This document shows positions 31,101 to 37,100 of a stretch of DNA of 64,000 bases, in pieces (positions within the stretch are counted from its first letter, which is position 1; every line of letters starts with the position of its first letter). This stretch comes from Opitutales bacterium (lineage in GTDB: Bacteria > Verrucomicrobiota > Verrucomicrobiia > Opitutales > UBA953). The stretch lies in contig JBBAUX010000005.1 in assembly GCA_040398005.1 (NCBI GenBank), forward strand, positions 1 through 64,000, in the 5' to 3' direction. Position numbers: made by a program.

Positions 31101-34100
31101 TGAAGGTAAAGATGAAGAGGTGCGTGGGATGCCGATTTCTTCAGGTAGAAAAGTTGAACCCGCGAAAGTGGGATGTCCGGCTCGGAAAAATAAATCTTTG
31201 GTTAAGAACGGTACGCCACCGAGACTATCCTCTTTTTGTGCCCACGCATTTTCAAAACGCTGGGTTAAACTTTTAGTGTCGGGTAAACCCGTTAAAGCGA
31301 AACGTTGCTCCTGCGCGCTGAGTGAACCGAGCTTCAGTAAAAAAGCTTCGGCGGACATACGCGGTCCGCGCGTGCTAAAAAAATCACGCCAATCAGAAAC
31401 AGTTTCGAGGTTTGTGCTCACAGATCAATCGCTACGCCAGGCTCGGGATCGTGGATCCGAGTGCCGGGTAATAATTTTGTCAGAGTCTCTTTCATCCAAG
31501 CTCGGGCGGGGGGATCGCCGTGCGTGAGAATAATATCCTTCGGACTGAGCGCTTTGGCAAAATCAATTAATTCTTCTCGGTCGGCGTGGCCGCTTAAGTG
31601 AAAACGTTCGACTTCCGCTTTTAAAATAGAGGTATGATCGAGGCCTTTAAATTTAAATTCGGCGCCTGATTTCATGCCAATCAACTCACCCCCTGGGGTG
31701 TCGGGATCGCAATAACCCACAAAGAAGACGGCATTTTCTTTCGTATCTAAAATATTAGCAGCCACGCGCCAAGCGGGCGTGTTTTCGACCAACATACCGC
31801 TCGAGAGAACGTAAATTCCTTGGACGGGTAAATTCTTACCAGGTTGGACGTAGCGGCGTGATAAAGATTGGACGCCGAGGTCGCGCAAAACTTTCTGACT
31901 GAAATTAACCTGCTTGGTCTTCTTACTCGCTTCTTCGAGATAGCCACAAAGATCCATGCCCAAGCCAGAGCAGAAAATTGGGACGTCGACTAAGTTGCCC
32001 TCGGCGGCGCTTTCATCTAATAATTTTAATATTTCCTGCATGCGACCGAAAGCAAAAGCGGGTAGCAGAACGGAGCCGCCATTATCGATGACACGATTAA
32101 TGGATCGGATTAAACGTGCTTCTTCTTTACCTCGAGAAATATCCGGAATGGTGGTGGTGGCTCCGCGTGTGCATTCCATGACCAGAGTGTCGACGGGCTG
32201 ACGTGGAAATTGGGCGCCGCCGACGGTGCGTTGCGCTTGGAAGTGAACATCGCCGGTAAAGAAGTGACGTTTCTTACGGTGTTCGATCATCAGTCCCACG
32301 GCACCAGCCACGTGACCGGCGAGATGGAAGGTGAGCGTGATTTCTTCTCCGCCTTGTCCAATTTTTCTGGGGTTGGCGATGGGCACCGCGGTGAGAGCGT
32401 GTTCGACGCGTTCAATATCTTGTTCAACGTAAAGAGGTAGATCCACATTACCCGTTTCTTCCCGCTGCCTTTTCATGACTTGCACAGAATTAGCGAGTAG
32501 TCTTCGTGCAAAAAGTGCTGATGCACCTGAAGTAAATACCCGCGTGCCAGGGTGTTGGCGGACCAAGAGTGGCAACGAGCCCAAGTGGTCTAAGTGACAG
32601 TGAGTGAGGATAACGCCATCCACGTTTCCGGGAATGAGATCGAGACGCGGCAGGGCTTGTTTGCCGGCGTGCTTGGGATGCATGCCGCAATCGATGACGA
32701 AGCGGAGTCCTCCAAACTCAGCGAGCATGCAATTCGCTCCAATTTCGCGGCCGGAATTTAAATCTGTTATTCTCATTAAGTAGTAGAAGAGGGTGGAATC
32801 ATTTCAAAAGATGGGATGCGGACAAACACGCGCTCGCCGTCTTCGGTTTCACCGTGAAAGGCACCTTCGGCGGTGACCGGTTCGCCGGTGAGATGATAGC
32901 TGTTATAGGAAAACTGTTCGCCGGGCGGGATGGTGGGAGTTTGGCCGACGATGCCGTCGCCCTGAATCACCTCTGTCGAACCATCGCGATGGCGGATGAT
33001 CCATTTACGTCCGAAAAATTTAACGGTATGGGGTGAAATATTATTAATAGTAAGAAAGTAAACGAAGGCGTGGGGCGTTTCGGGTGGAAAGTTGGGGTCG
33101 CGATGGTGAACCAGCTTATCGATGGTCACCCGTAGGCCGGGCAATTCCTTGGCGGAGGCTTCCACATTCAAAGACAAGAGGTTTAAGACCATTAAAGGAA
33201 GCCATAAATTTCCCGATTAACTAATAAATATCTTCCCTCCTTGCACCCCGTGCTTGGGTGGGTTGAATAAAAGTAATGCAGGCTTTTGACCAAAGTAAGG
33301 CAAATCTTCGGCGAGTGCCCCCCAAATGGTGGATTGCTGTGACCTATGTTGTCTTGGTTCTTCTTTCCAATACGTTCCCTATTTTCAGTGCGGTTGAAAA
33401 GCAATCGAGCCAGAACCCGATTTTGGTTCCGGCTTTTGACTATAAAGACGACCGAGTAATTCCGACGGAAAAGCAAATTCCAATCCACGCCAACTTTTAC
33501 GGATTCGATCAAAACAACAGCGCCGGTGATAAACCCGTTTTAGTGTATATCCATCGCGTGCCTTGGGACAGCCGAGGAAATCAATTTTGTGCAGACCTTG
33601 CAAAGTCAGGAAAAGTTGCGGTTGTTGAACCCTATCTTCCCGGATTTGCCTCGTCTTACGGAAATGTTCCCAGTCACTCCATGGAGGCTAATGCTCATGT
33701 GGTTGCCGCGTTACTCGAACAAAAGGGAATAAAAAAATACCATTTATTAGGGCAAGGACTCGGCGGTGTCGCGGCGCTGGAATTAACTAATGTGCATCGT
33801 GGCCGAGTCGAATCGGTGACGTTGCTATCCGCTCCGGGGGTGCAAGCTTTCGAATTACTCGGCAATCCTTTGGTTAATAAAATCGTTTACGGATTTCAAG
33901 GTGCCTTCTTTTGGGGTGTAGCCCGACTCACTCCTAATTTCGGTGCGGCGGATTTACTGCCCTGGGATCGGGATTATGCGAAAACAGTTTTCGATACGGA
34001 TTTATCGGAGAATAAAAGATTAATCGATGGGCTTAACCGTCCATTATTAATTATTCACGGTGATAGGGATTTACTTACGCCGGTAGACGCCGCTAAGTAC

Positions 34101-37100
34101 ACCGCAAAATTAATACCGAGTGCGCGATTGAAAGTTTATCACGGCGGGCGCGATGTGGTCTTTGAACAGAAAGAAGCGGTAGCTGGTGAGATTGTAGATT
34201 TCACAACGAATCTTCCAAAACTTGGTCCGCCACTGCCTCCATCAAATCCGCCCATCCCTAATGCCATTGGTATGCATTATTGGATGCTGTTATTATTTAT
34301 TATCGTTTGTACGTTTGTCGCAGAAGATCCCACCTGCTTGGCCTCGGGCTTAATGGTTTCGGTGGGCATCATCGACTTTTGGTCCGCTACCGTGGCTTGT
34401 TTCGTGGGGATTTTTATCGGAGATATGACACTCTATATGATTGGACGAGTGTTCGGTCGTCAGGCCCTTGGTCGCGCGCCCTTTAAGTGGATTATCAAAG
34501 AACATAAAGTGAATCAGTGGGCGGGTTGGTTCTCTACGCCGAAGGGAATGTTGGTGGTCGTCAGTTCACGATTCGTTCCGGCCAGCCGTTTGCCTACGTT
34601 TATCACAGCGGGTATTATGAAATTAGATTTAATGCGCTTGGGCCTGCTTCTGATGGTCGCGGCGCTGATTTGGACGCCTCCCCTTATTTGGCTTGGTTAT
34701 AAATTCGGCGATGATGGTATGCGCTTGCTTCACAACTTTAAGAGTAACGCGGTTTGGATTATCGTCGGACTCTTACTTGCATTGCATGTCTTAACTCACT
34801 GGTTGGTGCCGGCGTTGACTTGGCGTGGGCGTCGACAGATTATCATGAAAGTGCGTGGCTTCCTTCAGCCTTCACTTTGGCCCAACTGGATTGTTTATTT
34901 GCCGATTCGGATTGGGATTATTTTCTTAACTTTGAGACACCGCAGCCTCACCGCTTTCGCTTCGGCCAATCCCTCCTTCGGGCGGATTGGTGGATTTATC
35001 GGTGATCCTAAATCTCTTTTATTAAGACCGTTCCAGCGCGATTCGCGATGCTGTCCCCATCTTGCTTTGTCCATGGAAGATAAGCTCGAAGAGCGATTAA
35101 AAGAAGCTCAAGCCTTCGCGGTTTGTCACGGCTATCCCTTGGTCTTTAAGCCCGAGGTTTCCGAAGACGGTGCGGGGCTTCGTTATATCAAAAACGATGA
35201 ACAGTTAAATCGCTGGGTCGGTCATGCTAAAGAAGATTTTATTCTCCAGAAATTCATCAGCGGTTTAGAGTTTGAAATCGTTTGGCGGAGAAATCCTGGA
35301 CAGGACGACGGACATATTATGGCCATCGTACAGAAGAATGATATCGTGGTGATGGGTGATGGGGAGCAAACCTTGGAAGAACTCATTTGGCTCGATGAGT
35401 TTGCCGTTTCCCGCGCAGAATTATTTATTCAGTGTCATGCACGCGATTTAAATAAAGTCATTCCCGCCGGACAAAAAGTTATCTTAAATCTTTCAGGAAG
35501 TCACGGCCATGGCGCGCGCTGCTTACATCGCCCCGATTTAAATACACTGGCTCTCGAGCAAGCCCTCACTACGTTGGCTAAACGTTTTCCAGCCTTACAC
35601 TATGCCCGATTCGATTTACGTGCTTCGACTGAGGAAGAATTGAAGGAGGGTCGATTTGTAATGACGAGCGTAGGTGGCTGCTGTCACGTTTCTAGTCTGG
35701 TGCGCGACGAGTCTCTGCTCTTTCGCCGATCCTACTCCCAAGTCTGGCAGCAACTTAAAGTCTGCTTAGAGGCAGGCGCTTATAATCTTAAACAGGATGT
35801 GCGTCCCGTGCGTTTAGATGAGTTGATGGCACGCTGGAGCCAGGCCAATGGCCGCTCTGATAATTTCGTGGTGAGCGAAGAGTAATTTACCCGCGTGCCG
35901 TAAAGGCGTGGCAAAGAGCAATTGCGGCAGCATCAGATTCGTCCAAGGGTAATTCACTGTGAAGATTCAGAATAGATTTAATCATTTTACCGACCTGTTC
36001 TTTGCTCGCACTGCCGTGTCCGGTAACGGCTAACTTGATACGTTTAGGGGCGTATTCCTTAACATGAATATTGAGTCGAGCGAGGATACTTAAGGCCGCC
36101 CCACGCGAGGCACCCATGGCTTGGGCAGTCCGGAAATTTTGTACGTAAATGGTTTCTTCAATAGCCGCTTGATCTATTTTAAATTTCTCAGTCATACCTT
36201 CGACCGCTTCAGCGATTTTACCCAAGCATTCAATCGCCGTGAATTTAGGCTTAAGCTTCACCGTGGTGCTGGCTAATAATTGATAGGGCTCGGTTCGGGA
36301 ATCAATGACCGCTAAGCCAGTTCCGCGGAGCGAAGGGTCGATTCCGAGAATGATTCCCCGAACGCCACGATGTGAATTTTTCTCGACGGCTTTTTTGGTG
36401 CGAGGCGATTTGCTGGCCGATGGTGCAACGCGTGCTCCGCCCTTAAGGTGAGCTGTCCAAAGCGCGCGCGAAGATTTTCGAGCCATACGTGAGGTTTAGA
36501 TTCAATTAGTTTAAAAGCAAAGGGTAATTCTCGAGGTTGCTTATTTTGATTTTATTAAAACTATTATCCCTATGCGGTTAGGATCACTCTACTTATTGTT
36601 AGCACTCACTTTAGGGGCAGGTGAAGTGTCGGTGATTGTGCGGGAAGTTCCCGAAATGGACGCCTTTCAGCTGCAAACCTGCGCTAAAGTAGATAAGAAA
36701 TTAGTGCCTGAATGTTCGGCGCTTTGGGCTAGTCAGCAAAACCCTGGAGTGTTTTGGACTCTTTCCGATTCAGGCAACAAACCAGAAATTATTCCGCTTC
36801 GCAGCGACGGAACTTTGGCTTGGGGTACTAAGGGTATTACCATTAAAGGTGCAAAAAATTACGATTGGGAAGCTCTGACGGGTGATGCGGAAGGTAACAT
36901 GGTCGTGGCCGATGTGGGAAATAACATCTCTAACCGCCGTCAGTTGAACCTCTATTTATTTAAAGAGCCTTCCGCTAAGAATCTAGAGGTAGCCGAGGTT
37001 AAAACGATTTCGTTTATTTGGCCCGATCAAAAAGAATTTCCTGATTCGGAATTAAAACATGACTGTGAATCGGTATTTAAAATCAGAGGTAATATTTATT

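What a model noticed while it worked through the whole genome (the two positions that open the first line are those of the whole stretch)
33276..35885. Serine-less hydrolase-DedA-ATP-grasp triple fusion
g00778 (869 aa) joins an alpha/beta-hydrolase domain whose nucleophile Ser is replaced by Gly, a DedA/VTT membrane domain and a C-terminal ATP-grasp domain that annotation misses. The architecture suggests a single-chain unit that binds, ligates and flips a lipid-linked substrate.
Evidence so far: 35 of 35 aligned homologues (37-71% identity) carry hydrolase and VTT; ATP-grasp families CPSase_L_D2 in 11 and Dala_Dala_lig_C in 3; C-domain hits cyanophycin synthetase, glutathione synthase, RimK-type and carboxylase ATP-grasp weakly; ATP-grasp K625, Q658, E665 invariant; nucleophile elbow G-x-G-x-G invariant and catalytic His only in 18 of 35. 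Full-length (850-900 aa) in several Opitutales families and another class; model shows three domains.
(Added by a program. Inside this text positions count along the whole contig: contig position 1 is position 1 of the stretch shown here. "Call 12" and the like, gene names such as g00115 and contig names such as C1 are that model's own, and its searches are not shown. The text may have been shortened before it was handed on; [...] marks where a part breaks off. The agent that wrote the report below was given it as the finding of a first reader that could run no searches.)

Follow-up and report, generated by a model that had tools for sequence, protein, structure and literature searches.

The report
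Lipid flippase with two dead enzymes
This membrane protein looks like a lipid transporter still carrying two enzyme modules that have lost their catalytic residues, and its intact relatives point to an undescribed bacterial pathway for modifying amino-acid lipids that also involves the bacterial version of the human disease protein TANGO2.

Summary
The three-domain protein is real: alpha/beta-hydrolase, DedA and ATP-grasp (C-domain folded alone matches cyanophycin synthetase, Foldseek E 1.8e-10). Besides the Ser-to-Gly change, its ATP-grasp has lost the Mg-binding E-x-N (S798-x-G800) and has acidic residues where CphA1 has its two acyl-phosphate-stabilising residues. Distant relatives keep both sites (E-x-N 137 of 149; Ser 53 of 70). 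The degenerate form is one clade (100/100), under purifying selection in all domains (dN/dS 0-0.09), and near-universal in its Opitutales family (57 of 61 genomes). Intact relatives sit with olsB/olsA-like acyltransferases, DinB and TANGO2/NRDE across several phyla; the query's family lacks TANGO2 (0 of 61). Best reading: a DedA lipid flippase flanked by two pseudo-enzymes, descended from a make-flip-trim unit for head-group-extended aminolipids. Substrates are inferred, not shown. The main value is the intact module: a candidate for the unidentified ATP-dependent aminolipid carboxyl ligases and a genomic handle on TANGO2 substrates.

The parts
33276..35885 (+). Triple fusion ORF, 869 aa: signal-anchor, pseudo-hydrolase, DedA, pseudo-ATP-grasp
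   Evidence: model pLDDT 91.1, pTM 0.83
33333..33389 (+). N-terminal hydrophobic helix (res 20-38) preceded by basic residues; inferred N-in anchor that puts the hydrolase outside the cytoplasm
   Evidence: hydrophobic segment above threshold in 52 of 66 triple fusions
33417..34211 (+). alpha/beta-hydrolase fold (res 48-312), catalytically degenerate: elbow G-Q-G161-L-G-G, Asp265 kept, His replaced by Arg292
33756..33758 (+). Gly161 at the nucleophile position (Ser in most distant relatives)
34269..34814 (+). DedA/VTT membrane domain (res 332-513) with invariant E350, D351, D383, R432, R438, plus one extra C-terminal TM helix (493-511)
34818..35882 (+). ATP-grasp fold of the CphA/GshF type (res 515-869) with amphipathic N-terminal helices; nucleotide contacts K579, K625, Q658, E665, D780 kept; catalytic positions altered (D631, E667, S798, G800)
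35667..35675 (+). S798-V799-G800 in place of the E-x-N metal-binding motif
32776..33192 (-). ApaG-family gene, divergent upstream neighbour (housekeeping context, no aminolipid genes)
35887..36486 (-). ruvC, convergent downstream neighbour

Best explanation
The protein is a DedA-type lipid flippase flanked by two catalytically dead, still selected domains: an outside (periplasmic) pseudo-hydrolase and a cytoplasmic pseudo-ATP-grasp, kept as lipid head-group/acyl-chain binding or nucleotide-binding modules that feed or regulate the flippase. It descends from an active fusion that belongs to an undescribed aminolipid-tailoring module. Inferred cycle of the intact module: OlsB/OlsF and OlsA make an acyloxyacyl amino-acid lipid; the membrane-docked ATP-grasp activates its free carboxyl as an acyl-phosphate and adds a second amine (amino acid or taurine-like); DedA flips the product; the outside Ser hydrolase trims or trans-acylates it; the TANGO2/NRDE cysteine Ntn enzyme reverses or exchanges the amide. 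Shown: folds, motif loss, monophyly, purifying selection, gene context and its loss. Inferred: topology, flipping, all substrates, and the role of the dead domains.
For: Motif loss: E-x-N in 137 of 149 representatives found with the degenerate query itself and in 33 of 34 non-family Verrucomicrobiota loci, but N800 lost in all 114 aligned close homologues and E798 lost in the query and 7 of 7 closest relatives. CphA1 uses D431/E450 for Mg and H267/R309 for the acyl-phosphate (PMC9427784, passages); by the alignment these map to D780/S798 and D631/E667. In the tree set, position 667 is Glu in 19 of 19 degenerate rows and Gly/Ala/Ser in 108 of 108 others; 631 is Arg in 106 of 108 others and never in the 19. 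One clade (FastTree 1.0; IQ-TREE 100/100 on 40 rows). dN/dS 0-0.09 in all three domains for 7 pairs. DedA tip residues match those essential in COG0586 proteins (bioRxiv 2023.01.04.522824). Context of intact forms: OlsB-like 56, OlsA/PlsC-like 55, DinB 39, NRDE 29 of 74 loci (best NCBIfam models OlsB E 3.8e-38 and OlsA E 7.5e-41, both below cut-off); Bacteroidota stand-alone form with DinB 70, NRDE 68, LysE-like 52 of 80; Salinivibrio VTT-ATP-grasp-DinB-NRDE as separate genes; Paracoccus denitrificans ATP-grasp, Ser hydrolase and VTT as three adjacent genes. In 301 Verrucomicrobiota genomes, 23 of 25 with TANGO2 carry this ATP-grasp, and 34 of 35 non-family carriers have PF13444 against 183 of 301 overall. 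Query family: fusion 57 of 61, TANGO2 0 of 61.
Against: No biochemical data. Most of the clade keeps E798 (104 of 115), D780 and R778 (107 of 115), so residual ATP chemistry is not excluded outside the query's closest group; some active ATP-grasp enzymes lack the Asn (recalled, PurK/PurT). The loop Arg is not universal in E-x-N-intact relatives (K-P-D-I-G-W-C-G in 75 alphaproteobacterial loci, which were selected with that pattern; Paracoccus). Genus g2 keeps the fusion (18 of 19) with no PF13444 (0 of 19) and no GH3 in 3 checked, so its lipid there is not an OlsB/F/H product as far as searched. Bacteroidota loci have no OlsB, PlsC or DedA within 5 kb (0 of 80), and a large alphaproteobacterial subfamily sits with a haem-oxygenase-like enzyme and a methyltransferase instead (38 and 36 of 75). 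The Paracoccus hydrolase is only 29% identical to the fused one and shows no clear signal anchor. Kin are not independent, so the co-occurrence counts overstate.
Confidence: 0.6

Rival explanations
1. The query is still an active single-chain ligase-flippase, using the new acidic residues (E630/D631, E667) as a rebuilt metal site for a different substrate.
For: K579, K625, Q658, E665, D780 kept; E667 invariant in the clade (114 of 114 aligned); strong purifying selection on the domain.
Against: The Glu450-equivalent is Ser/Gly in the query's closest group and Gly/Ser/Asp in the deep branches; 630-631 vary across the clade (D, G, N, S); partner genes lost with the motifs; acidic residues at phosphate-stabilising positions.
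Confidence: 0.12
2. The fusion was recruited as the family's undecaprenyl-phosphate recycler or general phospholipid scramblase; the dead domains are only structural passengers needed for folding or membrane insertion.
For: Near-core in the family (46 of 47 high-quality genomes) even where no aminolipid synthase was found; best NCBIfam hit of the middle domain is UptA (E 1.5e-15, far below cut-off); DUF368 not found in 5 of 5 genomes.
Against: A separate 220-aa stand-alone DedA is present in the genome and in the 3 other family genomes checked; the flanking domains are as constrained as DedA itself and keep pocket and nucleotide residues, which a passenger would not need.
Confidence: 0.18
3. 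The ancestral module makes an exported small N-acyl peptide or a thiol/redox metabolite rather than a membrane lipid; the lipid link is secondary.
For: LysE-like exporter, DoxX, YHS (seleno)protein and a peroxiredoxin-like gene in Bacteroidota loci; haem-oxygenase-like enzyme and methyltransferase in alphaproteobacterial loci; closest structural kin are peptide ligases.
Against: Direct adjacency to an olsB-olsA-like pair in several phyla, also in 9 of 75 proteobacterial loci; fusion to DedA; conserved Trp-rich amphipathic N-terminus of the ATP-grasp even in stand-alone forms.
Confidence: 0.1

Closest known systems
DedA-enzyme fusions and PetA/UptA (PMC10193950, passages; bioRxiv 2023.01.04.522824, part 1 of 2)
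   Same: DedA domain with acidic first and basic second re-entrant tips, fused to lipid-handling enzyme domains; gene beside the synthesis genes of its lipid in intact relatives
   Different: The fusions named in the passages read are to LPG synthase, CDP-alcohol transferase, phospholipase D, PAP2 and rhodanese; none is to ATP-grasp or an alpha/beta-hydrolase, and here both partners are dead
Ornithine/aminolipid pathways OlsBA, OlsF, OlsHI (PMC12971839 section 6 part 1; PMC12493201 passages; PMC11631085 parts 1-3 of 5)
   Same: PF13444 and PF01553 neighbours; an alpha/beta-hydrolase (OlsI) acting as O-acyltransferase is a precedent; ATP-dependent taurine transfer to the ornithine-lipid carboxyl is known biochemically with the gene unidentified
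   Different: No ATP-grasp, DedA, DinB or TANGO2 component is described there; neighbours score below the OlsA/OlsB cut-offs, so the head group may not be ornithine
Cyanophycin synthetase G domain / GshF / RimK-LysX ATP-grasp ligases
   Same: Fold, lid insertion (V-x-G-D-G-x-x-T-L-x-E-L-I), K/K/D/E nucleotide and metal positions in intact relatives
   Different: Membrane-docking N-terminus; Arg in the P-loop and Gly at the Arg309 position in intact forms; metal and phosphate-stabilising positions lost in the query
MprF with its aminoacyl-lipid hydrolase AcvB/AhyD (recalled, not tested)
   Same: Logic of cytoplasmic synthase + flippase + outside hydrolase tuning a head-group modification
   Different: No sequence relation tested; tRNA-dependent there, ATP-grasp here
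TANGO2/NRDE family (PMC13044924, passages; PMC11867700, listing only)
   Same: Neighbour genes match PF05742 and start with Met-Cys (66 of 68 Bacteroidota copies); one NRDE-ATP-grasp fusion (P0286)
   Different: The paper states substrates remain unknown and has no operon or neighbourhood analysis (0 hits for those terms); the query's own family has lost the gene

Membership tests
alpha/beta-hydrolase superfamily | Fold with nucleophile elbow | tested here: met
   Pfam above cut-off; Foldseek E 3e-11, TM 0.70 to esterases
active serine alpha/beta-hydrolase | Ser-Asp-His triad | tested here: not met
   Gly161, Asp265, Arg292
DedA/VTT superfamily | PF09335 match above cut-off | tested here: met
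   50.2 bits vs 33.9
DedA COG0586-type transporters | Acidic residues at first and two Arg at second re-entrant helix | tested here: met
   E350, D351, D383, R432, R438 in 115 of 115; motif description; spacing of the acidic pair differs from YghB E39/D51
UptA undecaprenyl-phosphate transporter | NCBIfam equivalog cut-off | tested here: not met
   57.8 bits vs 250; a separate stand-alone DedA exists
DedA lipid flippases | Lipid translocation activity | not testable with these tools
   needs reconstitution or complementation
ATP-grasp superfamily | Fold | tested here: met
active ATP-grasp carboxylate-amine ligase | Mg ligands D...E-x-N | tested here: not met
   D780 kept; S798, G800
active ATP-grasp carboxylate-amine ligase | Nucleotide-binding Lys, Lys and hinge Q/E...E | tested here: met
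   K579, K625, Q658, E665
Cyanophycin synthetase / GshF / Ddl | Family cut-off and domain architecture | tested here: not met
   21.8 bits vs 850 for cya_phycin_syn; Ddl 11.9 vs 24
OlsBA ornithine-lipid operon (for intact relatives) | Adjacent PF13444 and PF01553 genes | tested here: met
OlsBA ornithine-lipid operon (for intact relatives) | OlsB/OlsA equivalog cut-offs (ornithine specificity) | tested here: inconclusive
   best hits but 131.6 vs 320 and 139.9 vs 300 bits for the one pair tested
Cerilipin (taurine-ornithine lipid) ligase | Presence in Gluconobacter cerinus | tested here: inconclusive
   no Gluconobacter among 75 loci found with a Komagataeibacter query, a close-relative search only

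The most novel reading that the evidence does not exclude
The intact family is the missing ATP-dependent ligase that extends the head group of bacterial aminolipids (second amino acid or sulfur amine on the ornithine/glycine-lipid carboxyl), working in a conserved DinB-TANGO2-ATP-grasp-transporter module; bacterial TANGO2 is therefore an N-acyl-amino-acid amidase/transacylase, and one Opitutales family turned the whole make-flip-trim fusion into a core, non-catalytic, possibly ATP-sensing lipid flippase.
Probability: 0.35. Interest if true: 0.9.

Novelty: new variant of a known kind. Interest (0 to 1): 0.72.

Why it matters
It makes two stated open questions testable. A 2026 review says the ATP-dependent enzyme that adds taurine to ornithine lipid is unidentified (PMC12971839), and di- and tripeptide lipids of Bacteroidota exist (PMC8433624); an ATP-grasp beside olsBA is the enzyme type expected. 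A 2026 structure paper says TANGO2 substrates are unknown and proposes a cysteine Ntn-hydrolase for fatty-acid conjugates (PMC13044924); here its bacterial homologues travel with aminolipid genes. The query itself is a rare double pseudo-enzyme kept as a near-core gene in small genomes (1.44 Mb here), which bears on how DedA flippases get specificity or regulation.

Tried and rejected
Whole-protein Foldseek returned only hydrolases, so the C-domain was folded alone. Short-form search with the query's C-domain gave only fragments of the same clade (27 hits). The first neighbour count by longest-ORF picking undercounted because opposite-strand ORFs displaced real genes (OlsB 39, PlsC 49 loci); six-frame HMM counts are used instead; those HMMs were built from the neighbours themselves and named by Pfam/NCBIfam on examples only; Bacteroidota DinB was recognised by my HMM, not by Pfam. 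E-x-N counts in L044-L119 are circular (the search pattern held the motif) and are not used as support. 'Sequencing error at S798' rejected. 'Sole undecaprenyl-phosphate flippase' weakened. 'Cerilipin synthase' not supported or excluded (a Gluconobacter plasmid stretch was of no use). 'Serine-glycine lipid synthase of gut Bacteroides' is weak: TANGO2 did not ring in the B. thetaiotaomicron control, though the ATP-grasp itself was not searched there. OlsH/GH3 as substitute synthase in the family: not found in 5 of 5. RNA runs: contigs from lake metatranscriptomes cover parts of the gene but also neighbours on both strands and cannot show transcription. No complex prediction was run. Literature searches: DedA + ATP-grasp 3 papers, none on this by title/abstract start; ornithine lipid + ATP-grasp 1 review, on acyl-histidine; NRDE family + DinB 0; nothing on this module by listing. 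The library lacks most subscription papers; Fig. 5 and supplements of PMC10193950, which I did not see, may list further DedA fusions.
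Full report
Observation. The ORF at 33276-35885 encodes 869 residues. Pfam finds an alpha/beta-hydrolase and a VTT/DedA domain above their cut-offs and only a faint ATP-grasp signal. The full model is confident (pLDDT 91.1, pTM 0.83). Records from the named collection place close relatives in Opitutales/Opitutia metagenome bins; the genome is 1.44 Mb and 94% complete.

The family is large and comes in several forms. A search of 50%-identity representatives with the C-domain gave 1805 proteins at E 0.001 or better. I analysed 149 of the 150 listed (a 106-aa fragment dropped). With six close rows added, architectures were 66 triple fusions, 55 DedA + ATP-grasp, 23 stand-alone and 11 hydrolase + ATP-grasp with an unrecognised middle. 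Named loci include Acidobacteriota, Planctomycetota, KSB1 and Gemmatimonadota, Bacteroidota and Proteobacteria, where RefSeq calls the gene 'D-alanine--D-alanine ligase', 'VTT domain-containing protein' or hypothetical.

Both enzyme domains are degenerate in the query, and intact in most relatives. Among the 149 representatives E-x-N is present in 137, and among 70 with a hydrolase domain the nucleophile is Ser in 53; 52 keep both, 12 lost Ser only, 5 lost both, 1 lost E-x-N only. Among 115 close homologues the nucleophile is Gly in all, position 800 is never Asn, and position 798 is Glu in 104; in the query and its 7 closest relatives 798 is Ser or Gly. CphA1 chelates Mg with Asp431 and Glu450 and stabilises the acyl-phosphate with His267 and Arg309 (PMC9427784, passages). 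The alignment maps these to D780, S798, D631 and E667 of the query; intact relatives have Arg at 631 and Gly at 667. Nucleotide contacts K579, K625, Q658, E665 remain. The degenerate rows form one side of a fully supported branch (100/100 on 10 of 19 degenerate and 30 randomly drawn other rows); the group was chosen as the query's nearest relatives, the root is midpoint only, and 'derived' rests on CphA1 and ordinary hydrolases having the intact motifs. Yet nothing is decaying: dN/dS is 0.03-0.06 for the hydrolase, 0-0.07 for DedA and 0.03-0.09 for the ATP-grasp in 7 pairs, and the DedA residues E350, D351, D383, R432, R438 are invariant.

Topology (inferred). A hydrophobic helix at 20-38 follows four basic residues. 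In E. coli YqjA the first hairpin and N-terminal helices are described as periplasm-side (bioRxiv 2026.09.20.752871, passages), which puts the hydrolase outside; an extra helix (493-511) followed by five basic residues puts the ATP-grasp in the cytoplasm.

Context of intact relatives. In 74 of the 76 loci with a scored ATP-grasp, OlsB-like genes lie within 7 kb in 56, OlsA/PlsC-like in 55, DinB-like in 39 and NRDE/TANGO2 in 29, often in the order olsB-olsA-dinB-NRDE-fusion. One pair tested scores best against OlsB and OlsA models but below cut-off. In 80 of 120 Bacteroidota matches that came with flanks, the stand-alone ligase has DinB in 70, NRDE in 68, a LysE-like membrane protein in 52, DoxX and YHS in 38 each, and no OlsB, PlsC or DedA. 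Salinivibrio has VTT, ATP-grasp, DinB and NRDE as separate adjacent genes; Paracoccus denitrificans PD1222 has ATP-grasp, a Ser hydrolase (29% identical) and VTT side by side; one NRDE-ATP-grasp fusion exists. Against a single story, 75 alphaproteobacterial-type loci have a haem-oxygenase-like enzyme (38) and methyltransferase (36), with OlsB in 9 and no DinB or NRDE. Across 301 Verrucomicrobiota genomes the ATP-grasp is in 41, TANGO2 in 25 (23 shared), PF13444 in 183; of 35 carriers outside the query's family (two weak hits dropped) 34 have PF13444, counted by hand, and the exception has the gene in pieces. Kin are not independent.

The query's family has uncoupled the gene. It lies between apaG and ruvC with none of these partners (three further family loci likewise). 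In 61 family genomes the fusion is in 57, TANGO2 in 0, PF13444 in 38; genus g2 has the fusion in 18 of 19 and PF13444 in 0 of 19. The own genome has an OlsF-like gene elsewhere (393.6 bits, cut-off 620), no DinB, NRDE, DoxX or YHS by my HMMs, and a second, stand-alone DedA.

Mechanism. For intact members I infer a make-flip-trim unit for head-group-extended aminolipids: acyltransferases build the lipid, the ATP-grasp ligates an amine to its carboxyl, DedA moves it, the outside Ser hydrolase trims or trans-acylates (OlsI is an alpha/beta-hydrolase O-acyltransferase, PMC12493201), and TANGO2 cleaves or exchanges the amide. The thiol-redox flavour of DinB, DoxX and YHS (roles recalled) hints at a sulfur amine, which is speculation. 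For the query I commit to a flippase with two non-catalytic binding or regulatory domains (0.6); an active rebuilt ligase (0.12), a general UndP/phospholipid flippase with passenger domains (0.18) and a non-lipid ancestral product (0.1) are the rivals.

Known and new. DedA-enzyme fusions are known (PMC10193950), but none to ATP-grasp in the passages read, and searches found no description of this module (library limited to open papers). I file it as a new variant of a known kind, with interest 0.72 because the intact module offers direct tests for an unidentified ATP-dependent aminolipid ligase and for TANGO2 substrates.

Noticed in passing
L125, L127, L063-L100 and L160-L239 (many loci): A conserved dinB-NRDE(TANGO2)-ATP-grasp core, often with YHS (seleno)protein and DoxX, across Verrucomicrobiota, Acidobacteriota, Bacteroidota and Salinivibrio; in Verrucomicrobiota 23 of 25 TANGO2 genomes carry it.
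   Followed up: yes
P0286 (722 aa): NRDE/TANGO2 domain fused to this ATP-grasp family in one protein.
   Followed up: partly
L133, L135, L143, L152: A second, independent clade of triple fusions that lost the hydrolase Ser but keeps E-x-N; hydrolase inactivation is recurrent (12 of 70 representatives).
   Followed up: partly
L120:5512-7368 (G000:C8:48511-50367): OlsF-like bifunctional aminolipid synthase in the own genome, about 10 kb from the stand-alone dedA.
   Followed up: partly
L298:4025-6963 and L299-L373: Acetobacteraceae/alphaproteobacterial subfamily of the ATP-grasp beside a haem-oxygenase-like iron enzyme and a methyltransferase, on Komagataeibacter plasmids; looks like a separate small biosynthetic cluster.
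   Followed up: partly
L170:5195-5836: LysE-like membrane protein downstream of the stand-alone ligase in 52 of 80 Bacteroidota loci, apparently taking the place of DedA.
   Followed up: partly
L159 (G185) and L151 (G290): Loci where the ATP-grasp gene is in pieces or truncated; G185 is also the one carrier without PF13444.
   Followed up: no
window 36572-37468: 298-aa predicted secreted protein with no Pfam family above E 0.2, syntenic with the fusion in 12 family loci.
   Followed up: no
window 30144-32776: Amidase and beta-CASP metallo-beta-lactamase genes upstream on the other strand, syntenic in close relatives only.
   Followed up: no
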